Part shown: in pieces, positions 1 through 27,329 of the stretch | Position numbering within the stretch: the stretch's first letter is position 1 | Layout of the letters: each line of letters begins with the position of its first letter | DNA from: a virus | Taxonomy: Duplodnaviria > Heunggongvirae > Uroviricota > Caudoviricetes | Strand: one strand, 5' to 3' | Length of the DNA stretch: 27,542 bases | Virus record (IMG/VR): IMGVR_UViG_2663762992_000005 | The notes under the pieces: model-generated | Database searches by the model: none | What the model was told of the DNA's origin: nothing | The model's input: only the letters and a program-made list of their open reading frames with translations | Translations under genes and position numbers: made by a program

Positions 1-298
<298 letters not shown>

Positions 299-4865: not shown

Positions 4866-5282
4866 TTATTGTTTATAACTGTTAATGCCCGCACGAATTT
4901 CACGTGCAAGCGTGCTAAGGATTTTGGGAATATTGTTATCGAGAGCTGGTCGCATAAAGGGTATGGCGACCTGTTTATACGTACCGTACTCCTGCGCGCG
5001 GGCTTTTATCGTGTGCGGTGCTGAGGGGCCCGCCCGGAATGTCATCAGGGTCGGCCAGCGGCCATCCCTGACACGGCTACGGCTTCTTACCCGGATGGTG
5101 TCACGCATATGCTCCCCGTCATTATCAGGGTTAAATCCCGCGTGCCTTATCATTTCATCCACCACCGGCTGCATGGCTTTCGTACCGGCGTCGCGTACGA
5201 TATTCAGGGCAATGTTTTCCCCGAGCGCTAGCAGGCTTTTCTCCAGCTCCGCCAGTCCTTCAACCTCAACGGATATTCTCAT
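4866..5282 (-). CDS. Tail component, HK97 gp10-like
   Basis: ATG at 5280-5282 preceded by GGAGG; contains the motif IPFMRPALD resembling the conserved PF(L/M)RPA signature of the HK97 gp10 family. The track ORF starts further upstream at an unlikely start. Confidence 0.6.
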   Translation of the reverse strand: MRISVEVEGLAELEKSLLALGENIALNIVRDAGTKAMQPVVDEMIRHAGFNPDNDGEHMRDTIRVRSRSRVRDGRWPTLMTFRAGPSAPHTIKARAQEYGTYKQVAIPFMRPALDNNIPKILSTLAREIRAGINSYKQ

Positions 5283-5694
5283 CGCCGACCTCCCCGACAC
5301 CATTAGCGTCAGCGCTTTGCGCGTACGTAAAGAAAAAGTCACGTGCCAGCCGGTACTGCACACTGCCGCTGGTCAGCACATTTTTATCCTGCTGAATGCC
5401 GCCCCGCGCCACGTACTGCACCGGAAACCCTTCTATCTGCCCGTGGACAACCGGCCGCCATGCACGCCAGATTTTTTGATCCAGTCGTAACAGTCCGGTG
5501 TAATCATCGGTGAGATACAGGGTTATCTGGAATCGCGCCGTGACAAGACCCGTACGTACCAGACCCACTTCAATTTCAGGATCGGAAATCCGCTGGTAAG
5601 TAACCCCCTCCAGCAGCTTATCGGGCAGGAGCAGAGGGTAAACAACCAGCCCGGTCAGGCGTTCAAGTGATGTCTTTAATGCCAGCTCGATCAT
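5266..5694 (-). CDS. Head-tail joining / tail completion protein (family unassigned)
   Basis: 142-aa ORF; its ATG at 5692-5694 lies 29 nt upstream of the preceding gene's stop, and its own 3' end overlaps the next start. Call is by position. Confidence 0.45.
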   Translation of the reverse strand: MIELALKTSLERLTGLVVYPLLLPDKLLEGVTYQRISDPEIEVGLVRTGLVTARFQITLYLTDDYTGLLRLDQKIWRAWRPVVHGQIEGFPVQYVARGGIQQDKNVLTSGSVQYRLARDFFFTYAQSADANGVGEVGDENIR

Positions 5695-10357: not shown

Positions 10358-10536
10358 TATTCACCCCCTGATTTAATTACGCTGGCGGACATCGATTTCG
10401 CGATTAAAAATGACCACAGCAGGCAGATTGAACCGCCAGTAATAAGCCCGGCTGCAGGTGAAATAAGCCAGGCACCGGCAGACACTAACCCGGCTCCGGT
10501 GAGGCCGATAATAAAACTTAAAAGAGTGATCAACAT
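10357..10536 (-). CDS. Small hydrophobic protein (59 aa) between TerL and portal
   Basis: Hand translation MLITLLSFIIGLTGAGLVSAGAWLISPAAGLITGGSICLLWSFLIAKSMSASVIKSGGE. Its start overlaps the TerL stop (ATGTTGA) and its stop overlaps the portal start (TAATG). Not in the ORF track (below size cutoff). Confidence 0.45.
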   Translation of the reverse strand: MLITLLSFIIGLTGAGLVSAGAWLISPAAGLITGGSICLLWSFLIAKSMSASVIKSGGE

Positions 10537-12251
10537 GTAATATCTTCCTCATCATAAGCCGATTTACTGACAGTTCCGTTCAGCATGGCTCGCCCGACTC
10601 CCATCATTAGTCCTACCGCGCCATCTATTTTGTTTTGCTTTCTCTCCTTCCCTGGGCGAACAATGTCATCGCTTCCTGGTAAGTAACGCCCTATAACATT
10701 CTGGATGCACCAGTTCATGATAGGGTTACCGTCATGATGAAAGCGTCCTGATGCCAGCGCCGCCTCAATTTCACGCATTGGATCACTCATATGTGTAAAA
10801 TTTTGCCTGATCTCAACGGATTCCAGCCCCTCCTCTTCAAGCAGATGGCGCAATGATGTTGCCCCGTAAGGATCTATCGGGCACTGGACAATTTTAACCT
10901 GCTGGCGTAACTGAAGAATTGACTCAAAAATTAACCGATAATCCACCTCAGCCCCTTCAGTAGGTATCAATACCCCCTGTTTCACAAATGACTGGTAACG
11001 TTCAGAAATGGTTTTCAGCGTGGGATCTGGTGAATAAATTGTATCTTCAGGCGCCCAGAACAGCGGCCCCACACAGTAAAAATGGGTTATACCAGCAACC
11101 TCTCTCCTGAACACTGGCACTACGGCATTCAGGTCTACTTTCGAGGCCAGATCAATACCCAGCCAGCAATCCTCATCAACAAAATCAGATAATTTAAGGT
11201 TTTTATCCGCAGCAGCCATCCATCTTTGCAGGTCATAAAAAACCGTTTTTGCACTTACCCACCGGTTAAAGTGCTTGGTCAGAATTTTGTTAGTCTGGCT
11301 GGGATTGGATATTCCCAGTAACTGCTTCGCCCGAAGAAAATGCTCTTTAACAGAAACACCAAAGTTGGGATTTGCTTTAATCAGCGCTTCGGGCCTGGTC
11401 CAGTCATCATCGTCATCCAGACCGTATATAATGCCAAATATTGTCTCGTTTTCTTCTCCTGTCCGGTTACGGCGGAGAATTTCCACTATCTGCACACGCT
11501 TCTCGTAACAGGGCGAAGTAATGTCATAACCCGCTGTAGTAATAATCAGAGTAACAGGCTGCTCCCTTGCCCCCATCCCGGTAGTCATCGTTGTATAAAG
11601 TGCATCAGTCTGATGCTCGTGATATTCATCAATAATTGCACATGAAGGGGAATCGCCGTCACCAGGATCGCCGATGACTGGCGCAAAAACAGAGCCATCC
11701 GGACGGGTCATTTTCTTCGCCCAGGGTTTGACTGAGTATTTTTGTCGCAATGCCGGGAGTTTTTTTACCATTTGTAGAGCGGGAGAGAAGACTTTCCAGG
11801 CTTGTTTTTCAGTAGTGGCGCCACAGTACACTTCTGCACCATGTTCACCATCGGCGCAAAACATATAATTACCAACGGCAGCTGCAATTGCGGATTTCCC
11901 ATTTTTCCTGGGCACCTCAATATATATTTCAGAAAAACGCCGGAATCCGGACTTCTTATTAACCCATCCAAATGGCACACCAAGGGCAAACTTTTGCCAG
12001 GGCTCAAATTCTATTCGTAGTTTCTTCCTGGCCCATTCACCGGCCGTATGAGGCATCTTCTGAGCAAAGCGCAAAAATCGCTCGGCCTTGTTTTTATCAA
12101 ACCGGTAAGGCCAGGCAGGATCCTTCGCACGTTCCAAATCATCAAGGTGTCTTTGACAGGCAAGCACAGTTAACTGACAAGCAAGGATCTTCCCGCCAAC
12201 AACATCTCTTGCATACTGGTTCGCTGCATTGACGTTCGGATATGTAGCCAT
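10530..12251 (-). CDS. Terminase large subunit
   Basis: 573 aa; Walker-A-like region GAEVYCGATTEKQ and nuclease-like C-terminal half; start overlaps the TerS stop. Confidence 0.9.
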   Translation of the reverse strand: MATYPNVNAANQYARDVVGGKILACQLTVLACQRHLDDLERAKDPAWPYRFDKNKAERFLRFAQKMPHTAGEWARKKLRIEFEPWQKFALGVPFGWVNKKSGFRRFSEIYIEVPRKNGKSAIAAAVGNYMFCADGEHGAEVYCGATTEKQAWKVFSPALQMVKKLPALRQKYSVKPWAKKMTRPDGSVFAPVIGDPGDGDSPSCAIIDEYHEHQTDALYTTMTTGMGAREQPVTLIITTAGYDITSPCYEKRVQIVEILRRNRTGEENETIFGIIYGLDDDDDWTRPEALIKANPNFGVSVKEHFLRAKQLLGISNPSQTNKILTKHFNRWVSAKTVFYDLQRWMAAADKNLKLSDFVDEDCWLGIDLASKVDLNAVVPVFRREVAGITHFYCVGPLFWAPEDTIYSPDPTLKTISERYQSFVKQGVLIPTEGAEVDYRLIFESILQLRQQVKIVQCPIDPYGATSLRHLLEEEGLESVEIRQNFTHMSDPMREIEAALASGRFHHDGNPIMNWCIQNVIGRYLPGSDDIVRPGKERKQNKIDGAVGLMMGVGRAMLNGTVSKSAYDEEDITC

Positions 12252-12685
12252 CAGTCAAACTCATCAAATTCATTCCCGTCGTCGTCAGGATCATTTCCAC
12301 CGCCACGCATCCGAATTCGGCTGAGCGGATCCAACCCCAGAAGCGAACCAAGACGGGCTATCTGGGAAACTGAATCATTTCTGATGTTAACGGCGGGATG
12401 TTTCTTTAATCCCCCCATTTCACTTTCGGTCGTCAGGCTTGACGAGAGCAATTTTTCAGCTTCAAGCATTAAATGGAAGGCATTGCAGTAAGCCACAAGC
12501 AGGGGCGCATCCTCCAGTTCAAACACGCCTCTTTCGATCAGAATTTTACTTTGGGTTTTCCACAGTCTTATTGCAGCCTCCCCCATTAACTCTGCAGGAG
12601 GTGCAATTCGGGTTAATTTACTTTTTTGTCCGGCGGGTAAGATGGGTTTTCTCCCCCCTCCAGACGATCGAATTCCACCAGCCAT
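12251..12685 (-). CDS. Terminase small subunit (P27-like)
   Basis: 144 aa directly upstream of and translationally coupled to TerL; acidic C-terminal tail. Confidence 0.65.
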   Translation of the reverse strand: MAGGIRSSGGGRKPILPAGQKSKLTRIAPPAELMGEAAIRLWKTQSKILIERGVFELEDAPLLVAYCNAFHLMLEAEKLLSSSLTTESEMGGLKKHPAVNIRNDSVSQIARLGSLLGLDPLSRIRMRGGGNDPDDDGNEFDEFD

Positions 12686-13019: not shown

Positions 13020-13388
13020 TCATCGGATACGCTCTCTTGCCGTCTTCGCTCTGTGGCAGTCCCAGCACAACGACTCAAGATTGAAATCGTCATCAGTACC
13101 GCCATGAGCTTTTGGAATGATGTGGTCAACGCTGGTCGCCTTTTTTGCAATCTTCTGCCGGCGATGGTTCTGACACAGGTACTTATCACGCTGAAGGATA
13201 CGCACCCGTTTAATTTCCCAGGTCCGCCCATATCCACGTTCCTGCCTGCTCTTTCCTGCCTGGTAGTTACGCCAGCCATCACCAGCATGCCGCTGTCGGT
13301 GTTGATCACAATAGCCACTGGCATCGTTGGTAACTGCCGCACAGCCCTTGTGCCGGCATGGACGCTTTGCTCGTGCTGGCATCGGCAT
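13020..13388 (-). CDS. HNH endonuclease (packaging-associated)
   Basis: Cys/His-rich motifs (CRHKGC, CDQH, CWDCH with a downstream H); ATG at 13386-13388. The HNH-TerS-TerL arrangement is typical of HK97-like cos phages. Confidence 0.75.
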   Translation of the reverse strand: MPMPARAKRPCRHKGCAAVTNDASGYCDQHRQRHAGDGWRNYQAGKSRQERGYGRTWEIKRVRILQRDKYLCQNHRRQKIAKKATSVDHIIPKAHGGTDDDFNLESLCWDCHRAKTARERIR

Positions 13389-13780
13389 TATCCTGTTTAT
13401 TTGATACAAACTTAGTAGAAAAAAAGGAATCAGAAACGGTCGCTAGCGGGAACTTCTCATTTATAAAGAGAACTTAGGCGGTCGCCGCCCAAGCATGTCG
13501 CAACGGCAAGTGACAATTAATAATGATAATACTTATACTTTATTGTCATTATGGAGGCTTTCAAGTGTCGACGTTATGCAGAAACCATGCCTGAGGAGAC
13601 CTTCGACAACACACTTATGTCTGACATGCTCAGCACTCAATTCCCTCCATCGGCAGTTTATGTTGTGCAACATAAATTATAGTGCCATCAATCACAGATT
13701 AAACAAGTGTGACTTATACACCCGTATCGTTGGATCAGTCTTTGGAGGAGTATTCATGATTGCCGTCATTAATCCGCGGA

Positions 13781-13814
13781 TTTTAATAAAAAAGCACTGG
13801 CAAATACCAGTGCT
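13781..13814 (-). terminator. Intrinsic terminator for the two-gene moron
   Basis: Eight-bp stem AGCACTGG/CCAGTGCT with a 6-nt loop, followed on the minus strand by TTTTTATT. Confidence 0.55.
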
Positions 13815-13889
13815 TTAACAATAACTCTACATCTAGAAAGTTAAAAATCTTAAAAGCAAAACATAAATAGCAATGTAAAATTAAATTAT

Positions 13890-14267
13890 TTATTTTTTGT
13901 CTTTAAAATAATAGCCAATTATAAACCCAAGAGATGTTCCTAACGCACTAACCATAATAGATAACACCTTATCTAACTCAAGTAGTGCGATACTTTTAGA
14001 AGCCTCCATGAGCCCTTTGCTTTGTAATTGAAGTACCCATTGCACTGCGCAATAGTTATAAACTATCACAAATATAAAAGAAAAAACGATAAGACCAAAA
14101 AAGCCTCTCATAAATGTTATGGTTAATGTACTCCTTGTTTTACCATCACGAAGAAATTGAGCCTGAATTTCATTTTCAATCTCTCCTGTTTCCTTCTCTA
14201 TTCTTTTATCTTCAAATCTTAACGCATTAACTTTAGATAACAAAGCCTGAATATCTTCCGTAGCCAT
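13890..14267 (-). CDS. Hypothetical membrane protein (coiled-coil N-terminus, two C-terminal TM helices)
   Basis: 125 aa; strongly AT-rich codon usage; ATG at 14265-14267 preceded by GGAGGGG located in the end of the upstream gene. Confidence 0.55.
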   Translation of the reverse strand: MATEDIQALLSKVNALRFEDKRIEKETGEIENEIQAQFLRDGKTRSTLTITFMRGFFGLIVFSFIFVIVYNYCAVQWVLQLQSKGLMEASKSIALLELDKVLSIMVSALGTSLGFIIGYYFKDKK

Positions 14268-14269
14268 TA

Positions 14270-14539
14270 TTACCCCTCCGACCTAAGCTCTGCTAATTTA
14301 TCGAGGGCATTAATGTATTTAGCATGTGCCTTATGATAATTGGCAATTGCTTTGAGCGACTCATTAATATCTTCAGAAAATGATGAATAAAATTCATATG
14401 GATCCTTACCAGCATAGTCAGGTAAGTTCGTTATGATTTTTTGTATTAAAACAATATTTTTATCCGTAAGTTCACCTGTAGCATCTCTGAATTCAAATAA
14501 ATTTTGAACTATAGCATCTATTTTTTTTACATTCGACAT
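14270..14539 (-). CDS. Hypothetical small acidic protein
   Basis: 89 aa, AT-rich, first gene of a two-gene unit with its own promoter. Confidence 0.55.
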   Translation of the reverse strand: MSNVKKIDAIVQNLFEFRDATGELTDKNIVLIQKIITNLPDYAGKDPYEFYSSFSEDINESLKAIANYHKAHAKYINALDKLAELRSEG

Positions 14540-14574
14540 ACATAATCCATTTTTCTCAGATTAACTGTTGAATT

Positions 14575-14604
14575 ATTATAGTTCATTTACACCTTTCATC
14601 TCAA
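14575..14604 (-). promoter_or_regulatory. Sigma70-like promoter for the two-gene moron
   Basis: Minus-strand TTGAGA (14599-14604), 18-bp spacer, TATAAT (14575-14580), about 35 nt upstream of the ATG at 14539. Confidence 0.4.
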
Positions 14605-15284
14605 CTTATCATACCATTGATAACACTTTTTTGAACCAGTCAGCTATGAGTGGCCCATCAAAGGATTTAGAGGTTCGATTCATCAGTGTTATCCAATTTA
14701 TCTTGACATCAATAGGGTAAACGGTTATGACTAAAACTACATGACTATCGCGTAGGCAATTCGGACAAAGGTGATTATCAAGCTTAGAAATGAAGGTACG
14801 TTTATATCCCACCAAATACCGTAACCACATTCATGGCGACTTTTTCAGTTCTGCGTTGATGCCAGACGTTGAGTTTGAGCCCCTCGTAATAGCCTAAACA
14901 GTCAGTAGTAGTCCGCAGACATCCTAGTGGGATAAGAAATCATATAGTTTTTTAATTTTCCGTCGCAAAGTAAAATCCCCAGGCGCAAACGGTTTACCCT
15001 AGCTAACTACTGTCACAGCATTCCCCTGAATGCCTGCTGCAATGCTCACTTAGTAGTGTTGAAGTCCTACCCCTTAAGCGATAAATCGGTAAAATTGAAA
15101 CTAAGGCTTCAATGATGTGACATAGAGACGGCGGTCCAATTCTATCAGTTTACCGATCAAAGCGACTACAAACTCCTTTTTTTTAATCTCATTCGATACT
15201 TCATATCGTTGAAGGAGTGTAGACTCAGGTCGTTGTGCATTGTGTAATTCATTTTCAATTTCTTTTAATGTATGGAGTAGAGTC

Positions 15285-15941
15285 ATGGGAATTCTCACTT
15301 TCGATATCACTTGCCCACATTGTCTGAGGGAAAATGCTGTCCTTGAAGGATGGGCAGAACTGCGTATCAACGCCGGGCCTTTAGTTAATATTGCATTTTG
15401 TTGTCGAAGCTGTTTTCAATCAGGTATTGCTATTGTAAAAATGAATAATCCCGGTGGTTATTTACCTCGTGCAAAATCTAGGCAAAATAATGATGTAAAC
15501 GTAATCATTCCTGGAAATACTGAGTACCAGTTGATTGATATCATCCCGAAACCCACCCTCCTTAACGCCCCCGAACACACTCCGCCACGTGCTGCTATGG
15601 CTTTCATAGAAGCAAAAGACAACTTAGGGCGCTGTCGTTTCGACACATCCGTTATGCTTTGCCGTAAAGTCTTGGACATTGCTACACGGGAGTTACTGGG
15701 AAATGACTCAAAAGATGAAAAATTGGTTAAACGGATTTCTATGTTGCATGCTAAGGGACTGATTACAGATCAAATGAGGGAATGGGCACATATAGTTCGA
15801 ATCGATTCCAATGGAGCAGTTCATTCTGATGAAGAATTTTCAAAAGAAGATGCTCAAGAAATGATTGGTTTCACCGAAGTATTTCTTCTATATGCCTTCA
15901 CATTGCCTGATATGGTAGACAACAAAAAACAAAATCAATAA
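15285..15941 (+). CDS. Zinc-ribbon protein with DUF4145/HEPN-like C-terminal domain; candidate abortive-infection or defence protein
   Basis: ATG at 15285 with GGAG 7 nt upstream. N-terminal CPHC and CCRSC cysteine pairs; C-terminal R-x7-H motif (VRIDSNGAVH) in a helical region, as I recall for DUF4145. AT-rich and opposite in strand to the surrounding phage genes. Confidence 0.55.
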   Translation: MGILTFDITCPHCLRENAVLEGWAELRINAGPLVNIAFCCRSCFQSGIAIVKMNNPGGYLPRAKSRQNNDVNVIIPGNTEYQLIDIIPKPTLLNAPEHTPPRAAMAFIEAKDNLGRCRFDTSVMLCRKVLDIATRELLGNDSKDEKLVKRISMLHAKGLITDQMREWAHIVRIDSNGAVHSDEEFSKEDAQEMIGFTEVFLLYAFTLPDMVDNKKQNQ

Positions 15942-16156
15942 GTTATAGAGCCACAGTTTGACATCCACACTTTGTTATGCATAAGAATGTCTTTCTTGGT
16001 CTGCCTGTCCAGCACTTCCCAATCATGAGCAGTGCCGTAGATGGGTTTTACCCAATCGCAGCCGGTGTCAATAACCTCAATCCTTACGTGTCCAGTTTTT
16101 GCGCAGCTCGCGATCAGCAGCGTCATCAGGCATATGGTTAACAGTCTGTTGTACAT
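15935..16156 (-). CDS. o-spanin (Rz1-like outer-membrane lipoprotein)
   Basis: Signal peptide with lipobox LIASC; start lies inside the i-spanin gene in another frame and the ORF extends past its stop (overlapped architecture). Confidence 0.65.
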   Translation of the reverse strand: MYNRLLTICLMTLLIASCAKTGHVRIEVIDTGCDWVKPIYGTAHDWEVLDRQTKKDILMHNKVWMSNCGSITY

Positions 16157-16353: not shown

Positions 16354-16968
16354 TCACACCAGTGCAGCTTTAGCTTTGGCGTAACGTTCACGGCGGTCTT
16401 TAATGCCGTTCTGTCCGCCGTTAATAATCTGCGTAACGCGTGCCACGTCACCCGAATACATCAGGCAACCGCGTAACGTGAAGTACCACGCAGCCGAACG
16501 AGCCGCATGTCGCTCTTGCGTTAGCAATTCTGGCGTACTGATAAGGTCAAGTTTCAGCGCCGTGCCGCATTTGGTGTAGTTCTCACGACCCGTGATTTGC
16601 AGCAGGCCGCGACCGCGATATTTCCAGCCGTCACCCTGGCTGTTATTCCCCATGCGGTCACCATAAACCAGATTGGCTATTTGCGGCTGGTGGGCCACCT
16701 GCTTACCATCGACACGACCCAGCATTTCACACTGATAAGGAGTAAGCCGTTTACCAAAGGTTTTCTTCAGCCCCTCTACCGAGTAGTTGAAGCTTTCCAC
16801 CAGCGAGGTAAAGCCAGCAGACTCATGCCCAACCTGGGCGATGAACATAGCCAGATCGTTCGTAGCTGTAATGCCAAACTCTTTCATTGCCGCGTCAATG
16901 TGCGGAAACCAGCGCGCAGAAAGCCCGGCGCTGATACCAGCCGCCTGCTGAAATTGTGATTGGTTCAT
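16354..16968 (-). CDS. Endolysin, glycoside hydrolase family 19 (chitinase-like lysozyme)
   Basis: Motifs FIAQVGHESAGF and YRGRGLLQITGRENY resemble the GH19 signature; ATG overlaps the upstream stop (TAATG). Confidence 0.8.
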   Translation of the reverse strand: MNQSQFQQAAGISAGLSARWFPHIDAAMKEFGITATNDLAMFIAQVGHESAGFTSLVESFNYSVEGLKKTFGKRLTPYQCEMLGRVDGKQVAHQPQIANLVYGDRMGNNSQGDGWKYRGRGLLQITGRENYTKCGTALKLDLISTPELLTQERHAARSAAWYFTLRGCLMYSGDVARVTQIINGGQNGIKDRRERYAKAKAALV

Positions 16969-17249
16969 TAGTGCCTCAGATGATCAACCAGACGTGCCAC
17001 GTTGCCTCTTACGGCGACCAGCACGGACAGGAAAATAAAGTTGGCCCCGATAGTGGCCCATGATGAGTACGGGTAAATACCGCACAGATACGCCAGCGGA
17101 ACGGCGCTGTAGATGACCGTAAGCAGCCACGCTAAGCGAGATATCCACGGTCGATGTCGCGAGTCGCCGCGACGGTAAAACATCAGGGTTAACACTACCC
17201 CAGCACAAAGCAATGCATTAAAAGTTGCCGATGGGTCATTTTGTACCAC
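16968..17249 (-). CDS. Holin-like / antiholin-like small membrane protein
   Basis: 93 aa with two or three TM segments; GTG start at 17247-17249 preceded by GGGGAGG at 6-nt spacing; sits between the holin and the endolysin. Confidence 0.5.
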   Translation of the reverse strand: MVQNDPSATFNALLCAGVVLTLMFYRRGDSRHRPWISRLAWLLTVIYSAVPLAYLCGIYPYSSWATIGANFIFLSVLVAVRGNVARLVDHLRH

Positions 17250-17622
17250 CTGAACCTCCCCGGCGCGTTATCAGCGCCACCAGCGAGCCGACATCCTGAT
17301 TATTCAGGAATGTCAGGATTTTGACGGCTAAAGCAGAAACGATTACGGCGCCAATGGCATCCAGTGGTTTATCACTGTAGCCGGTAGCCTGAGCCAGCTT
17401 TGAACCCACCAGCCCGGAACAAAGGATCCCCGCGATATACGACACCAGAAAATATGCCAGTCGGCGCGCTGCACTTAGATCCGCTGCGGTTGCAATGTAA
17501 AATACAGCCCCGGCAAATGCGCCAAACACCACGCCGTAATCGGTTCCGGATAGAAATCCATAGACGCTGGCCCCCGTCAGGACACCACCAGCCATCCCAG
17601 AACCGGAAATCGGATCGGACAT
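17236..17622 (-). CDS. Holin
   Basis: 128 aa with three predicted TM segments and a charged C-terminus; ATG at 17620-17622 preceded by GAGGGGGG; first gene of the lysis cassette. Confidence 0.6.
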   Translation of the reverse strand: MSDPISGSGMAGGVLTGASVYGFLSGTDYGVVFGAFAGAVFYIATAADLSAARRLAYFLVSYIAGILCSGLVGSKLAQATGYSDKPLDAIGAVIVSALAVKILTFLNNQDVGSLVALITRRGGSGGTK

Positions 17623-17672: not shown

Positions 17673-17700
17673 TTGATTTTATACATTAAAATATTACAAT
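17673..17700 (+). promoter_or_regulatory. Sigma70-like promoter for the plus-strand membrane protein
   Basis: TTGATT (17673-17678), 16-bp spacer, TACAAT (17695-17700), 30 nt upstream of the ATG at 17730. Confidence 0.35.
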
Positions 17701-17729
17701 ATATTTTTGACCAACTTTTGAAGAATACA

Positions 17730-18392
17730 ATGGACTCGAATACCTTAACCATTATAGGAACATTTATTGTTGCCATAATAAGCGGATTACTGGCTTATTC
17801 ATCTTCTCTTTCTGCAAAGGAAAAAGAGGTCAAATTATCCGCATATGAAAAACTCGGACTTGATATACATGCCAATCTTGAAAAGCTTTACAATAATACA
17901 GAATGGCTTTTACTGATTTTTCAACACAAGAATACATTAAACCGCGGAGATTTAATTATTGCCAACAAACAAGTTTCTCTAGACGTTGACAAACTCAGAG
18001 AACTTAGCATAAGAATGAGATTTTTTGATAATGCTTGCTATAAGAAATATGAATCTGTAGTTCAATCGCATGGTAATTTAATACCACAAATACTTGGTTA
18101 TACTCGGCATCCACATGAAACCCCAAGAGATGCTTCAGAACTTTACTCTCGAGAAGAAACACAGGAATTTATAAATAAATTATCCATACTAAAAGATGAA
18201 ATAAATAGCACTAAGATCCATATAACGAACAAAATAGCCAAGGAATATAACAAAGCCCTATCATCTTCAAGGAAAGTTACAGTGCTAGCTTTCATAGTAT
18301 TATTTACTGCATTTATAGCATTTATAATTTTCCCTTTGAAAGAGCAGTCACCTTCGCCCGCAAAAGAAAAAGTCATGCTGCTCTCTTCATAA
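17730..18392 (+). CDS. Hypothetical membrane protein with N- and C-terminal TM helices
   Basis: 220 aa from the ATG at 17730 (the track ORF starts at an upstream TTG); AT-rich; transcribed opposite to the late operon. Confidence 0.5.
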   Translation: MDSNTLTIIGTFIVAIISGLLAYSSSLSAKEKEVKLSAYEKLGLDIHANLEKLYNNTEWLLLIFQHKNTLNRGDLIIANKQVSLDVDKLRELSIRMRFFDNACYKKYESVVQSHGNLIPQILGYTRHPHETPRDASELYSREETQEFINKLSILKDEINSTKIHITNKIAKEYNKALSSSRKVTVLAFIVLFTAFIAFIIFPLKEQSPSPAKEKVMLLSS

Positions 18393-18611: not shown

Positions 18612-19463
18612 TTATTTTGTAGGTTTAGGACCTAACGTGAATTTTGATTTAGTTCCTTTTCGCAACCGTCTAACATCAGGAAAAAGTTCTACTAATCTAT
18701 CTGTACACTTAGTCAAGGATTCAGTACAAATAATCATCCCCATAATCATATAGCCAAAGTCATAGTTGTTAAAACAACCAGTTCCTCTTCCGTTTGGCTC
18801 CATTTTATAATATGACATAGGTAGTATATGCGTATAATGAGATAAAAAATCGAACATTATTTTAAATGACTTTGGATCTTTTCCCAGTTTAACCAATAAC
18901 TCATCTCGATTTGGAATCATAAGCGCTTTTCCAGTCAAGCAACGTTTTCTGGTTCCTTGTTCAAGGGATAAAAAAACAGGGTTGTTATTAAGTCTCTCAG
19001 TTATTATATCTTTTTGTTCATGATAAAAATCCAATGCTTTCGTATTATCACTAGATGTAAATAACTCAATTCTCTTTACACAATCATTCATGTGCATGAC
19101 ATTCAACTTTGCTGACCACTCCTCAGTTGAATCTGGATTCTCAGATAAATACATAAACAATAACTCAGCTTCCAGAATCGCTCTTACATGAGGTGCAATC
19201 GCCGAAAAATCCCAAAAGTCATAATCCCGCTTAGCCCATCTTGATTTTGGTACGTTGGAAATCATTATTGAAGCATGAATGCAGATTCGTGAAAAAATGT
19301 ATGTAGACCACCCTTTAAAAGCCTCAGCCATTCGCACACCAACCCCCTGACTTACAGCATTCGCTTCACATACAGCTTTATCAAACTCCCTTAAGTAGTG
19401 ATGGAAGTCATCCATCGAAAAATCGTTTCGTTCAAGTGGATTTTCGGGATTATCTATTTTCAT
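18612..19463 (-). CDS. Hypothetical protein (orphan, AT-rich)
   Basis: 283-aa ORF between the tR'-like terminator and the holin; followed by its own hairpin plus T-run near 18565-18584. Confidence 0.55.
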   Translation of the reverse strand: MKIDNPENPLERNDFSMDDFHHYLREFDKAVCEANAVSQGVGVRMAEAFKGWSTYIFSRICIHASIMISNVPKSRWAKRDYDFWDFSAIAPHVRAILEAELLFMYLSENPDSTEEWSAKLNVMHMNDCVKRIELFTSSDNTKALDFYHEQKDIITERLNNNPVFLSLEQGTRKRCLTGKALMIPNRDELLVKLGKDPKSFKIMFDFLSHYTHILPMSYYKMEPNGRGTGCFNNYDFGYMIMGMIICTESLTKCTDRLVELFPDVRRLRKGTKSKFTLGPKPTK

Positions 19464-19626: not shown

Positions 19627-20337
19627 TCACATTTCTGCCACTTTGAGGGCTTCTTCTTCCTCATAGTATTCAAGAGCCATTGCCAACGCAGATTCATCAA
19701 GCTGGGTAAAAGCGGCCTTTAACCCAGCCCAGTGCCCTGAATAGACACGCAACCATGTCGAACGATCAACGCTAACCATGCGGGCCAACGCTGCACCAGC
19801 ATAGTCTTTATAGGTTTCATTATTTCTGGTTGCGGCAATTTCCTGCCCTGCCAGCCATACCAGGCCAATCAGTTTCTTTACTACGCGCTCCTGAAGGGAA
19901 TTATCACCCAGGCATTTCTGATAAGTTTTCCAGACGTATTCACACATCATCACTTGGTGCTTATAGCTAAGGTCAAAACCGTAGCAGTACCGCAACCAGG
20001 CCTGCTGGTATCCACTAAGCGCGGACACTGCCCTACGCCACGGCGCGGACTCAAATTCCGCATCTTTTATCGGCGGCATTGGCCTGCAGCGGCTGCGTGT
20101 TTCCAGTACATACAATGGCGCGGAAAGCGAGTTAACAAAGCGAGGCCCCTTCTCTCCTTCGAGTTCGACGAGATGAATTCCACGGCGCGGGGTGGCATTT
20201 TTGTCTGCTGGTGGGTGTTCACTGAAAGCCTCAAGCTGCCCTTTTGTTCCCCCAGAGAGGTCAGGTAGCGCGCGGCGCAATTCTATTCTTACAAAATTCA
20301 GGTCTTGTTGATTCATGCTTCTTTGCGCTCCATACAC
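19627..20337 (-). CDS. Putative late-gene antiterminator (Q-like)
   Basis: Call is by position: immediately upstream of a terminator and the lysis genes, downstream of nin-region-like genes. A likelier ATG start is at 20314-20316. Confidence 0.45.
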   Translation of the reverse strand: MYGAQRSMNQQDLNFVRIELRRALPDLSGGTKGQLEAFSEHPPADKNATPRRGIHLVELEGEKGPRFVNSLSAPLYVLETRSRCRPMPPIKDAEFESAPWRRAVSALSGYQQAWLRYCYGFDLSYKHQVMMCEYVWKTYQKCLGDNSLQERVVKKLIGLVWLAGQEIAATRNNETYKDYAGAALARMVSVDRSTWLRVYSGHWAGLKAAFTQLDESALAMALEYYEEEEALKVAEM

Positions 20338-26526: not shown

Positions 26527-26645
26527 GGTAAAAGTTGTTGGCACCATTGATCATACAACCTAAACAACTTTTACCACAACTTTTAGGTGTTGGAAAGCTA
26601 AAACATAAAGTTGTAATCTCTCCTAATACAGGGGGTAAAGTTGTG
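26527..26645. promoter_or_regulatory. Operator/promoter region between cro and cI with five copies of the half-site TAAAGTTGT / ACAACTTTA
   Basis: Copies at 26529-26538 (+), 26564-26573 (-), 26577-26586 (-), 26606-26614 (+) and 26636-26644 (+); the first two form a 13-bp inverted repeat GGTAAAAGTTGTT...AACAACTTTTACC. Confidence 0.5.
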
Positions 26646-27329
26646 AATACACTTGCGGAACGACTAAAAATAGCTAGAGAGAAGAAAGGCATGAGCCAGG
26701 CTCAGTTAGCCGAGCTAATAGGCCTGTCTCAACAATCTGTGGCGAAAATTGAAAATGGAGATACGCTTCAACCTAGAAAGATCAAAGATATTGCGAAAGC
26801 TTTAGATGTATCCCAAAAATGGCTACAGCTCGGAATTGAGGAGAATGGCTCTATTTCTGATTTTGTAGTTGAGGAACTTGAAGAAGCAAAACTTGATCCT
26901 GAAGTATTTGCCAACATACCCGTTCTCGATGTTGAGTTCTCTGCTGGCAATGGATGTGAAGCCGAAATTGTGGAATCAGTTGTTGATTCGTTCCCTCTTC
27001 GTCGTTTCGATCTTAGAAAAGCTGGAGTCAGTCCTGCTAACGCAAGAATCGTAAAGATTTGGGGCAACAGCCTTTTGCCAGTATTGAATAATGGGGATCA
27101 TGTCGCGATTGACATGTCACAGTCGAAACCTATCAGAGATGGTGATTTATACGCTGTTAGAGATGGAGTTTTACTTCGAGTTAAAGTTCTTATCAATCAA
27201 CCAGATGGTGGTTTGATACTGCGGAGTTTCAACAAAGAAGAGTACCCGGATGAAGTACTCAACTTTGATGAAAGAAGAGCCAGAATACACGTTATTGGTC
27301 GCGTGTTCTGGTCTTCACGTTCATGGTAG
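26643..27329 (+). CDS. cI: CI-like repressor (N-terminal HTH, C-terminal S24 LexA-like peptidase domain)
   Basis: [26 protein letters not shown] preceded by helix 1; C-terminal domain with GNSLLP (Ser) and a downstream Lys as in LexA/CI autocleavage domains. Probable GTG start at 26643 with GGGGG 7 nt upstream. Confidence 0.8.

What the first reader, a model, noticed from the sequence alone, without database searches (positions are those of the whole stretch)
13781..14606. Autonomous AT-rich two-gene moron (89-aa soluble plus 125-aa membrane protein) between packaging and lysis modules
Two tightly spaced minus-strand genes have their own sigma70-like promoter (TTGAGA-18-TATAAT) and a downstream intrinsic terminator. 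The second gene's ribosome-binding site is embedded in the first. Base composition is visibly lower in G+C than the flanking phage genes. A small acidic protein paired with a coiled-coil/two-TM protein is an architecture seen in toxin-antitoxin, superinfection-exclusion and abortive-infection modules. I recognise no known family.
Basis: partly seen in the sequence, partly recalled or inferred. Interest (0 to 1): 0.7.

Follow-up and report, generated by a model that had tools for sequence, protein, structure and literature searches.

The report
Conserved two-gene membrane moron in prophages
A lambda-like prophage carries a self-contained, AT-rich pair of small genes (a soluble helical hairpin protein and a two-pass membrane protein). 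The same pair recurs in cargo and defence slots of many enterobacterial prophages, belongs to no characterised family, and is most likely a new phage-exclusion or abortive-infection module, though no function has been shown.

Summary
Two minus-strand genes, A (14270-14539, 89 aa) and B (13890-14267, 125 aa), sit between the only 11/12 sigma-70 match in the window and a strong intrinsic terminator. Their GC is about 0.31 against about 0.50 in the flanks. They lie between the lysis genes and HNH/terminase of a lambdoid prophage.

The pair is an obligately linked cassette. All 38 viral loci with upstream DNA, and the 6 enterobacterial genome loci, have an A-like gene abutting B. A related Klebsiella phage lacks the cassette at this junction. 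Elsewhere it sits in the P2 gpA-gpQ (tin/old) defence hotspot, beside an AbiL system, and next to an integrase. That argues against a lysis-specific role.

A is a confident helical hairpin with one conserved patch. B has a cytoplasmic helix followed by an N-in/C-in TM hairpin. Its second TM helix carries a GxxxGxxxG motif, is followed by YYFK, and is nearly invariant.

Pfam, NCBIfam, PADLOC, PDB sequence and fold searches and the literature gave nothing. Only two PHROGs of unknown function match.

Best reading (about 0.45): a lysogen-expressed membrane effector with a cytoplasmic regulator, acting in phage exclusion or abortive infection. A toxin-antitoxin or other conversion role remains possible. 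Function is inferred, not demonstrated.

The parts
14575..14604 (-). Sigma-70-type promoter, TTGAGA (14604-14599), 18-nt spacer, TATAAT (14580-14575)
   Evidence: It matches 11 of 12 positions. It is the only site with at least 11/12 in the window on either strand, and P=0.0076 in shuffles of the upstream 200 nt. Activity was not tested.
14270..14539 (-). Gene A: 89-aa soluble helical-hairpin protein (phrog_21707, unknown function)
   Evidence: - ORF listed. An in-frame stop 8 codons upstream rules out an N-terminal extension.
- AlphaFold2 gives mean pLDDT 93, with helices 2-42 and 47-88.
- A homologue lies immediately upstream of B in all 38 IMG/VR loci with upstream DNA and in 6 enterobacterial genomes.
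- The conserved residues L14, F17 and R18 face Y68, N69, S71 and Y75 across the hairpin.
14273..14279 (-). Shine-Dalgarno GGAGGGG for gene B, embedded in the last codons of gene A
   Evidence: Read directly from the sequence. It lies 5 nt upstream of B's ATG. A's stop and B's start are 2 nt apart, and in many homologous loci they overlap.
13890..14267 (-). Gene B: 125-aa inner-membrane protein (phrog_20796, unknown function). It has a cytoplasmic helix (1-47), TM1 (about 55-75), a periplasmic loop (76-100), TM2 (101-121) carrying G110xxxG114xxxG118, then YYFK and a basic tail.
   Evidence: - ORF. PHROG match at 4.5e-49. 132 homologues.
- Invariant and nearly invariant residues are listed.
- AlphaFold2 gives pLDDT 78, with helices 3-83 and 98-122.
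- Mean pairwise identity is 84% for TM2 and 22% for the N-terminus.
- Topology was inferred from hydrophobic stretches and the positive-inside rule. It was not computed with a topology predictor.
13782..13816 (-). Intrinsic terminator: 11-bp stem, 4-nt loop, T-run
   Evidence: Found in the scan. The fold gives -16.4 kcal/mol. Comparable hairpin plus T-run sites follow B in about half of the homologous loci.
13500..15950 (.). AT-rich cargo islet inserted between spanin and HNH. It holds the A-B cassette, a roughly 630-700-bp stretch without a convincing gene, and a divergently oriented DUF4145 gene.
   Evidence: - GC is 0.31-0.43 here against 0.48-0.55 outside.
- Gene calls on identical contigs show no gene between DUF4145 and A.
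- The related Klebsiella phage ST846-OXA48phi9.1 has only tiny ORFs at this junction.
15240..15941 (+). Neighbouring independent cargo gene: a DUF4145 protein. It is not part of the A-B operon.
   Evidence: Pfam DUF4145 at 8e-11. phrog_1305 at 7e-43. A weak PADLOC match to PD-T7-4 at E=0.0027. Other annotators start it at about 15285 (218-225 aa).

Best explanation
**What it is**
The element is a horizontally mobile prophage moron with its own promoter, two translationally coupled genes and its own terminator. It encodes a two-component inner-membrane module.

**The two proteins**
- B is the membrane component. Its conserved core is an N-in/C-in helical hairpin, with an invariant Y-N at the outer end of TM1. 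TM2 carries a nearly invariant glycine zipper and is followed by YYFK.
- A fast-evolving cytoplasmic helix precedes this core in B.
- A is a cytoplasmic helical hairpin. Its single conserved surface patch probably docks on B's conserved juxtamembrane segment (RDGKTRSxLT) at the membrane face.

**Most likely function**
The module is expressed from the prophage in the lysogen and protects the host and prophage against other phages. It could block genome entry at the inner membrane. Alternatively, when A senses infection or is lost, B could oligomerise through its glycine zipper and collapse the membrane potential (abortive infection). That would work like lambda RexA/RexB or a pinholin held in check.

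**Shown and inferred**
- Shown: gene structure, promoter and terminator motifs, composition, linkage of A and B, family-wide conservation pattern, genomic positions, and absence from known families.
- Inferred: expression in the lysogen, A-B contact, pore formation, and the anti-phage phenotype.
For: **1. Moron anatomy**
- The promoter is the unique 11/12 match in the window, and there is a -16.4 kcal/mol terminator.
- GC is 0.31 against about 0.50 in the flanks.
- The cassette has lower GC than its locus in every enterobacterial locus, 0.31-0.39 against 0.35-0.54.

**2. Mobility between phage backbones**
- The cassette sits downstream of at least two unrelated endolysin types (phrog_7 in 9 loci, phrog_181 in 7) and several spanin families.
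- It sits upstream of different HNH, TerS and TerL families.
- It is absent from the same junction in a phage whose terminase genes (TerL and most of TerS) are 77% identical at the DNA level.
- It is retained at 100% identity in prophages that have lost parts of the replication or head-tail regions.

**3. Positions outside the lysis region**
- Between P2 gpA and the portal gpQ (L045-L047). This is the cos-proximal tin/old defence hotspot of Rousset et al. 2022 (PMC9122126).
- Directly upstream of AbiLi/AbiLii, with PADLOC E-values of 8.6e-101 and 3.4e-27 (L005).
- Next to an integrase, a RhoGAP-domain protein and a sulfatase.
- In the window itself it neighbours a DUF4145 cargo gene.

**4. Prior from the literature**
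Six of 8 randomly chosen unknown-function gene sets from P4 hotspots gave phage protection (PMC13586616).

**5. Obligate A-B linkage and coupling**.

**6. Conservation pattern typical of a variable part plus a constant part**
- Mean pairwise identity is 25% for A and 22% for B's N-terminus, against 84% for TM2.
- The invariant residues are membrane-embedded or juxtamembrane.

**7. A acts at the membrane**
In Morganellaceae, A carries a conserved N-terminal TM anchor that ends right at the hairpin's start.
Against: - There is no experimental or homology-based link to any defence, exclusion or toxin family. PADLOC v2 gives no hit even at E<=1, Pfam and NCBIfam give none, and PDB and BFVD fold and sequence searches are non-specific.
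- Known defence genes are immediate neighbours in only a few of about 32 loci.
- Consensus promoters upstream of A are found in only some homologous loci. Lysogen expression may therefore not be general.
- Distant B-like proteins, each with a small upstream ORF, occur in an alphaproteobacterial MAG beside what looks by eye like the ribosomal protein L9 gene (not checked against a family model), and in Pirellulales and CPR bacteria. This hints at a non-phage ancestral role.
- The cassette is rare. One of 50,697 phage records carries it, and 2 of 5,426 complete E. coli genomes carry the E. coli-type cassette.
Confidence: 0.45

Rival explanations
1. It is a toxin-antitoxin (addiction or stabilisation) module. 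B would be a small membrane toxin and A its protein antitoxin, in the upstream, translationally coupled position. The role would be to keep the prophage or its cargo islet in the genome rather than to exclude phages. The layout resembles CptB(SdhE)/CptA(YgfX).
For: - Two small, tightly coupled genes with the soluble partner first.
- The cassette is mobile and AT-rich.
- It is retained intact in prophages that have lost other regions.
- B's TM2 carries a glycine zipper and B ends in a basic tail, features which, from my own knowledge, are typical of pore-forming small toxins.
- One locus has a frameshifted B with an intact A (L049). That is the decay pattern expected if B is costly.
Against: - No match to any TA family in Pfam, NCBIfam or PADLOC.
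- A has no DNA-binding fold for autoregulation. It is a plain helical hairpin.
- Toxicity is untested.
- TA and abortive-infection functions are not mutually exclusive, so this overlaps the best explanation.
Confidence: 0.2
2. It is a lysis or late-function accessory of the phage itself, for example an antiholin or holin-like timing device or a membrane factor acting with spanins. It would be read through from the late operon under Q antitermination.
For: - It has the same orientation as the late operon and lies immediately after the spanin genes, both in the window and in roughly half or more of the homologous loci.
- B has the topology, glycine zipper and charged C-terminus of class II holins. 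The holin comparison rests on my own knowledge.
Against: - The window already has two bona fide holins (Pfam Phage_holin_8 at 5.6e-34 and Phage_holin_3_7 at 1.1e-19).
- The cassette has its own promoter and terminator and a GC content about 20 points lower.
- It also occurs in the P2 gpA-gpQ hotspot, in a tail-module moron slot beside AbiL, and next to an integrase.
- A closely related phage does without it.
- There are no holin, antiholin or lysis PHROG hits apart from a noise-level match at E=0.09.
Confidence: 0.1
3. It is another lysogenic-conversion function unrelated to phages, such as modulating envelope stress, membrane potential or persistence, or host interaction.
For: - Moron anatomy fits.
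- In some loci the neighbours look like virulence or envelope cargo: a RhoGAP-domain protein and a sulfatase-family enzyme.
- Distant relatives occur in non-phage chromosomal contexts.
Against: - Nothing specific points to any such function.
- The fast divergence of A and of B's N-terminus and the occupancy of a defence hotspot fit a conflict system better.
Confidence: 0.15
4. It is not a functional unit: chance ORFs in AT-rich junk DNA.
For: AT-rich DNA readily yields promoter-like hexamers. Overall counts of promoter-like sites are not above the shuffled expectation.
Against: - B has 132 homologues and 227 representative clusters, with invariant residues across genera and phyla.
- A is conserved beside B everywhere.
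- A's AlphaFold2 model has mean pLDDT 93.
Confidence: 0.02

Closest known systems
Morons of lambdoid and HK97-like phages (as defined by Juhala/Hendrix; own knowledge)
   Same: An extra transcription unit with its own promoter and terminator. Its base composition is deviant. It is inserted between two conserved modules and is present or absent between related phages.
   Different: 'Moron' is a structural category and implies no function. This one carries two coupled genes rather than the usual single gene.
Lambda RexA/RexB abortive-infection system (own knowledge)
   Same: A prophage-borne two-gene unit with a cytoplasmic component upstream of a small inner-membrane component. The proposed logic is the same: the soluble partner controls a membrane depolariser.
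   Different: There is no sequence similarity and no Pfam hit at E<=0.1. From memory, RexB has four TM segments and RexA is about 280 aa. Here B has two TM helices and A has 89 aa. Location also differs: rexAB lies in the immunity region.
Cargo of the P2 gpA-gpQ cos-proximal hotspot (old/tin and others; Rousset et al. 2022, PMC9122126)
   Same: A variant of this cassette, with a 163-aa A, occupies exactly this slot in L045-L047. The window's slot (spanin | HNH-TerS) is presumably also cos-proximal, which is an inference.
   Different: The cassette is not among the systems validated there. B's conserved motifs GFIIGYYF and LGTSLGF are absent from the supplementary tables held (two of the tables were cut when stored). 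PADLOC's Rst_* models do not hit it.
Class II holins / pinholin S21-68 (own knowledge)
   Same: Two TM helices with N-in/C-in topology, a glycine-zipper motif in TM2, and a short basic cytoplasmic C-terminus.
   Different: There is no holin family hit. B has an extra 47-residue cytoplasmic helix. It is not the phage's holin, since two others are present. It has an obligatory soluble partner gene and its own promoter and terminator.
CptA(YgfX)/CptB(SdhE) type IV toxin-antitoxin pair (own knowledge)
   Same: An approximately 88-aa soluble helical protein is encoded just upstream of an approximately 135-aa inner-membrane protein with two TM helices.
   Different: There is no sequence similarity. 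From memory, YgfX has its TM helices at the N-terminus and a cytoplasmic C-domain, which is the reverse of B. SdhE is a five-helix bundle, not a hairpin.
Small inner-membrane superinfection-exclusion proteins (T4 Imm, P22 SieA/SieB, HK97 gp15; own knowledge)
   Same: Small phage-encoded inner-membrane proteins, two of them (HK97 gp15 and the P22 sie genes) prophage-expressed accessory genes. One cassette position, after the tail tube and chaperone genes in L005 and L025, resembles as I recall it the slot of the HK97 gene 15 moron.
   Different: No sequence similarity was detected in Pfam or PHROGs. Those are single-gene systems, whereas here a soluble partner is always present.

Membership tests
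Moron (autonomous accessory transcription unit in a prophage) | Own promoter upstream | tested here: met
   An 11/12 sigma-70 match 29-65 nt upstream of A. It is unique in the window, with P=0.0076 in shuffles. This shows the motif only; activity was not tested.
Moron (autonomous accessory transcription unit in a prophage) | Own factor-independent terminator downstream | tested here: met
   An 11-bp stem with a T-run at -16.4 kcal/mol. It recurs in about half of the homologous loci.
Moron (autonomous accessory transcription unit in a prophage) | Base composition different from the flanking phage genes | tested here: met
   GC is 0.31 against about 0.50. The cassette is lower than its locus in all enterobacterial loci.
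Moron (autonomous accessory transcription unit in a prophage) | Present or absent between otherwise related phages | tested here: met
   Klebsiella phage ST846-OXA48phi9.1 (terminase genes 77% nt identity) lacks it between spanin and HNH. The cassette is also found in unrelated backbones.
Moron (autonomous accessory transcription unit in a prophage) | Expressed from the repressed prophage | not testable with these tools
   This needs RNA-seq or 5' RACE on a lysogen.
Known anti-phage defence systems (PADLOC-DB v2.0.0) | Sequence match to a model of a known or candidate system | tested here: not met
   No family matched A or B even at E<=1.
Known anti-phage defence systems (functional class) | Residence in defence hotspots or next to defence genes | tested here: inconclusive
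   The cassette occupies the P2 gpA-gpQ hotspot, sits next to AbiLi/AbiLii, and neighbours DUF4145 in the window. Most of the roughly 32 loci have no known defence gene within three ORFs.
Known anti-phage defence systems (functional class) | Reduces phage plating or propagation | not testable with these tools
   This needs a phage challenge of a strain carrying the cassette.
Toxin-antitoxin systems | Two small adjacent co-transcribed genes | tested here: met
   The genes are 2 nt apart and B's Shine-Dalgarno sequence lies inside A. They overlap or abut in the homologues.
Toxin-antitoxin systems | Homology to a described toxin or antitoxin family | tested here: not met
   Pfam, NCBIfam and PADLOC gave no hits.
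Toxin-antitoxin systems | Toxicity of one product that is neutralised by the other | not testable with these tools
   This needs separate and joint expression of the two genes.
Holins (class II / pinholin) | Small protein with two TM helices, N-in/C-in, and a charged C-terminus | tested here: met
   Helices 3-83 (containing TM1) and 98-122, with KDKK at the C-terminus. Topology follows the positive-inside rule and is an inference.
Holins (class II / pinholin) | Match to a holin family model | tested here: not met
   There is no Pfam or PHROG holin hit for B. The window's two true holins score 5.6e-34 and 1.1e-19.
Holins (class II / pinholin) | Constant association with an endolysin as part of the lysis cassette | tested here: not met
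   The cassette occurs in the P2 gpA-gpQ slot, in the tail module, and next to an integrase, with no endolysin nearby. It also has its own promoter and terminator.
RexAB / Imm / SieB-type exclusion proteins | Sequence similarity to these families. From memory, Pfam holds models for RexA, RexB, Imm and SieB. | tested here: not met
   No Pfam family at E<=0.1 for A or B. The PHROG hits are only to families of unknown function.
PHROG phrog_20796 (B) and phrog_21707 (A), both of unknown function | Full-length profile match | tested here: met
   B matches at 4.5e-49 over residues 1-125 of a 126-position profile. A matches at 5.2e-08 over residues 5-85 of a 102-position profile.

The most novel reading that the evidence does not exclude
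The A-B pair is the founding member of an undescribed family of two-component membrane immunity systems. A fast-evolving cytoplasmic hairpin sensor or inhibitor controls a glycine-zipper two-TM effector that depolarises the cell or blocks genome entry. The family spreads as a cassette among cos-proximal and other cargo slots of enterobacterial prophages. It derives from an older two-TM family carrying the Y-N and GYYFK motifs, which reaches Planctomycetes, Alphaproteobacteria and CPR bacteria.
Probability: 0.35. Interest if true: 0.6.

Novelty: new variant of a known kind. Interest (0 to 1): 0.45.

Why it matters
If the pair is a defence or exclusion system, it would be one of the smallest two-component membrane systems known, at 214 aa in total. 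It has a clear split between a constant part (the TM hairpin) and variable parts (A and B's N-terminus), which makes specificity easy to dissect.

It would also support the spanin | HNH-terminase junction of lambdoid phages as a cargo hotspot comparable to the P2 and P4 cos-proximal hotspots.

If it proves to be a plain toxin-antitoxin pair or another conversion function, it still defines a conserved, uncharacterised protein pair that no curated library covers.

Tried and rejected
**Family and structure searches that found nothing useful**
- Pfam, NCBIfam and PADLOC scans of A and B gave nothing.
- PDB sequence searches with profiles of A and B returned only noise: rhodopsin TM segments and designed helical bundles.
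- Foldseek of the B model against PDB and BFVD, and of the A model against PDB, gave no match at E<=0.001. The A hits were generic helical hairpins.
- The afdb50 library was unavailable.

**DNA and literature searches**
- Megablast of the cassette against complete E. coli genomes and against phage records gave no match.
- A single-sequence homology search for A found only itself. A profile of context-derived partners was needed.
- The literature search for the TM2 motif and the PHROG id returned zero papers.
- The Rousset 2022 supplements do not contain the motif. Brenes & Laub 2025 is not held in the library.

**Tests that were blocked or uninformative**
- A mirror-tree test showed that A co-varies with every part of B. 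Spearman values were 0.15-0.39, with no specific signal for the N-terminus, so it is uninformative beyond shared ancestry.

**Ideas rejected**
- The lysis-accessory idea, because of the non-lysis locations and the autonomous signals.
- The packaging-accessory idea (link to HNH), because HNH is downstream in only 7 of about 31 loci.
- The 73-aa (14609-14830) and 89-aa (15101-15370) minus-strand ORFs in the gap. They have no family hits and are not called on identical contigs.
Full report
**1. The observation**

The window is a lambdoid prophage read on its minus strand. Its genes, in order, are:
- a cI-like repressor (26535-27329, plus strand);
- Q antiterminator (19627-20337);
- two holins (17236-17622 and 16968-17249);
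- a GH19 endolysin (16354-16968);
- an Rz1-like spanin (15935-16156);
- HNH (13020-13409), TerS (12251-12685) and TerL (10530-12251);
- portal, protease, capsid and tail genes.

Between the spanin and HNH lies an AT-rich stretch (GC 0.31-0.43). It contains the two ORFs of the finding: A at 14270-14539 (89 aa) and B at 13890-14267 (125 aa), both on the minus strand.

- TTGAGA-18-TATAAT lies at 14604..14575 and matches 11 of 12 positions. It is the only site that good in the entire window on either strand. Only 0.76% of shuffles of the upstream 200 nt reach that score.
- GGAGGGG lies inside A's last codons, 5 nt before B's ATG.
- An 11-bp hairpin with a T-run (-16.4 kcal/mol) follows B.

The stated coordinates 13781-14606 run exactly from terminator to promoter.

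**2. The pair is a real, obligately linked cassette**

B has 132 homologues at E<=1e-3 across Enterobacteriaceae, Erwiniaceae, Yersiniaceae and Morganellaceae. All are annotated as hypothetical.

A alone finds only itself. In the loci recovered through B, however, an A-like gene always sits immediately upstream, abutting or overlapping B:
- 10 loci came from GTDB genomes and 40 from IMG/VR.
- All 38 viral loci with upstream DNA have it, as does Klebsiella phage P7641.
- The 6 enterobacterial genome loci have it too.

These partners align with one another at 18-30% identity, with shared motifs L..FR in helix 1 and YN.S...DY..A.K.L in helix 2.

Four distant loci (an alphaproteobacterial MAG, Pirellulales, Parcubacteria and Dojkabacteria) also have a small ORF of 80-109 aa upstream of a B-like protein. 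Homology of those partners is not established. The retrieval pattern was itself LGFIIGYY, so the motif's invariance in those four loci is partly built in.

An unbiased profile search of 1.84 billion representative proteins found 227 clusters at E<=1e-3. All are small (38-228 aa among the 150 listed) and none is fused to another domain. They share R45, F52, F57, N71, G114, F115, G118, Y119, Y120, F121 and K122. The distant members are unnamed environmental sequences.

**3. It is mobile cargo, not part of the lysis or packaging machinery**

- *Composition.* Cassette GC is 0.31-0.39 in every enterobacterial locus and always below the locus average of 0.35-0.54.
- *Usual position.* I scanned the three ORFs on each side in about 32 non-redundant loci.
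  - Upstream are spanins, endolysins of at least two unrelated types (phrog_7 in 9 loci, phrog_181 in 7) and holins.
  - Downstream are HNH (7 loci), several TerS families and two TerL families.
  - The cassette therefore recurs at the lysis | terminase junction of different phage backbones. One example is an E. coli lambdoid prophage with a lambda-type holin and a GH24 lysozyme.
- *Absent from a relative.* Klebsiella phage ST846-OXA48phi9.1, whose terminase genes (TerL and most of TerS) are 77% identical at the DNA level, has only tiny ORFs at that junction.
- *Other positions.* The cassette also occurs in at least five other kinds of slot:
  - between P2 replication gene A and portal gene Q (L045-L047);
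  - after the tail tube and chaperone genes and directly before AbiLi/AbiLii (L005; PADLOC 8.6e-101 and 3.4e-27);
  - after a gp5-like spike, next to a RhoGAP-domain gene (L007);
  - near a sulfatase-family gene (L043);
  - next to an integrase (L022).
- *Hotspot.* The gpA-gpQ interval is the cos-proximal defence hotspot that holds old and tin in P2 (Rousset et al. 2022, PMC9122126).
- *Retention.* The cassette is kept at 100% identity in prophages that have lost parts of the replication or head-tail regions.

A terminator follows B in about half of the loci. Consensus promoters are detected less regularly.

**4. Anatomy of the proteins**

*Protein A.* AlphaFold2 models it with high confidence (mean pLDDT 93) as an antiparallel hairpin with helices 2-42 and 47-88.
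- The few conserved residues are L14, F17 and R18 in helix 1 and Y68, N69 (H in the window), S71 (A in the window), Y75 and A78 in helix 2.
- They face each other across the hairpin, because i + j is about 89. This gives one conserved patch about two-thirds of the way from the loop to the termini.
- Loop length varies. In the P2-hotspot variant A is 163 aa.
- In Providencia, Xenorhabdus and Proteus, A carries a conserved N-terminal TM helix (IFFPLxAxWxxWK) that ends right at the hairpin's first residue. This places the hairpin's base at the membrane.

*Protein B.* The model has pLDDT 78, with a long helix at 3-83 and a second at 98-122.
- From the hydrophobic stretches and charge distribution I infer this layout: cytoplasmic residues 1-47, TM1 about 55-75, a periplasmic loop at 76-100, TM2 at 101-121, and a cytoplasmic KDKK tail.
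- Conservation is very uneven:

| Region | Mean pairwise identity |
|---|---|
| N-terminus (1-44) | 22% |
| TM1 | 51% |
| Periplasmic loop | 42% |
| TM2 | 84% |

- The consensus around TM2 is LLELDKVLSIIIGALGTSLGFIIGYYFKEK, which includes G110xxxG114xxxG118.
- RDGKTRSxLT before TM1 and Y70-N71 at the outer end of TM1 are also conserved.

*Comparison with known proteins.* No solved or predicted viral structure and no PDB sequence resembles either protein beyond generic helices. Pfam, NCBIfam and PADLOC give nothing. The only matches are two PHROGs of unknown function.

**5. Mechanism: what is shown and what is inferred**

*Shown.* This is an autonomous-looking, mobile, translationally coupled two-gene unit. 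It encodes a soluble hairpin and a two-TM protein with an invariant membrane core. It recurs in prophage cargo slots, including a validated defence hotspot.

*Inferred.*
- (a) The unit is transcribed in the lysogen.
- (b) A's conserved patch binds B's conserved juxtamembrane segments. The support is A's TM-anchored variants and the obligate linkage.
- (c) B's glycine-zipper helix oligomerises into a pore or binds a conserved inner-membrane target.
- (d) The output is exclusion of superinfecting phages or abortive infection.

The variable-plus-constant conservation pattern fits a conflict system. So does the report that 6 of 8 randomly chosen unknown-function gene sets from P4 hotspots conferred phage protection (PMC13586616).

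I put this reading at about 0.45. The rivals are:
- a plain toxin-antitoxin or addiction module (0.2), which overlaps the best reading mechanistically;
- another lysogenic-conversion role (0.15);
- a lysis accessory (0.1), disfavoured by the autonomous signals, the deviant GC, the non-lysis locations and dispensability in a relative;
- chance ORFs (0.02).

**6. Comparison with known systems**

In logic it works most like lambda RexAB, with a soluble partner and a small membrane effector expressed from a prophage. It also resembles a restrained pinholin. In layout it resembles the CptB/CptA toxin-antitoxin pair.

It is a member of none of these. Every sequence-based membership test failed.

It fully meets the structural definition of a moron. 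The one criterion that could not be tested is expression from the repressed prophage.

**7. Novelty and score**

The kind of element is familiar: a prophage moron carrying a small membrane-protein module, probably for defence. The protein pair, however, is uncharacterised and is absent from Pfam, NCBIfam and PADLOC. I rate it a new variant of a known kind.

Interest is 0.45. It is a clean, compact and testable candidate with good contextual support. It has no demonstrated function and is rare: 1 of 50,697 phage records carries it, and 2 of 5,426 complete E. coli genomes carry the E. coli-type cassette.

Noticed in passing
window 15240-15941 (+): A DUF4145 protein (Pfam 8e-11, phrog_1305 at 7e-43) with CxxC...CxxC motifs near its N-terminus. 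It is oriented divergently from the A-B cassette, has GC of about 0.40, and gives a weak PADLOC hit to PD-T7-4 (E=0.0027). It looks like a second, independent cargo gene in the same islet. 'DUF4145' also appears among the P2-hotspot gene arrangements in Rousset 2022 Table S5.
   Followed up: partly
window 14607-15240: About 630 bp between the divergent A-B and DUF4145 units has no convincing gene. The 73-aa (14609-14830) and 89-aa (15101-15370) minus-strand ORFs have no family hits and are not called on identical contigs. There is no Rfam match. It may hold regulatory elements for both units.
   Followed up: partly
window 37-159 (-): A strong Rfam match to the isrC Hfq-binding sRNA (RF01387, 150 bits, E=6e-37, full length). 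It lies just downstream of the minor tail protein gene (417-761).
   Followed up: no
window 17673-18392 (+) and 18612-19463 (-): Two further ORFs of unknown function lie between Q antiterminator and the holins. One is 239 aa with no family hit. The other is 283 aa with only a sub-threshold DUF5677 hit. GC in part of this stretch is about 0.35. This looks like another cargo slot. In an E. coli prophage carrying the cassette, the same slot holds a KAP-family NTPase.
   Followed up: partly
window 13472-13494 (-): A second terminator-like hairpin (10 bp, 6 GC pairs) lies between the A-B terminator and the HNH gene. The cos site of this HNH/P27-type packaging module probably lies in 13410-13790, but it was not located.
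   Followed up: no
L004, L005, L006, L037, L038 and proteins P0125-P0141: In Morganellaceae (Providencia, Xenorhabdus) the A partner is 131-138 aa. It has a conserved N-terminal transmembrane helix (IFFPLxAxWxxWK) that is absent from the Enterobacteriaceae versions.
   Followed up: partly
L045:2701-3568, also L046 and L047: This variant cassette has a 163-aa A, with a longer hairpin insert. It sits between P2-type replication gene A and the portal gene, in the tin/old hotspot.
   Followed up: partly
L049:~5000-5370: B is split by a frameshift in the periplasmic-loop region while A is intact. This is either a pseudogene or a sequencing error.
   Followed up: no
L008-L011: Distant B-like proteins that share the Y-N and GFIIGYYFK motifs each have a small upstream ORF. 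They occur in an alphaproteobacterial MAG (beside what looks by eye like the ribosomal protein L9 gene), Pirellulales, Parcubacteria and Dojkabacteria. This suggests an older family that is not restricted to phages.
   Followed up: partly
L007:6481-7311 (-): A RhoGAP-domain protein (Pfam 2.7e-11) is encoded next to the cassette in a Providencia prophage. It may be a host-targeting effector carried as phage cargo.
   Followed up: no
L053, L056: Some copies of this prophage lack genes present in others. In L053 and L056, int-xis lies close to Q and the Dam/RusA/ANT/DUF968 genes are missing. In L056, portal-to-capsid genes are also missing. All copies still carry the DUF4145 gene and the A-B cassette unchanged.
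   Followed up: no
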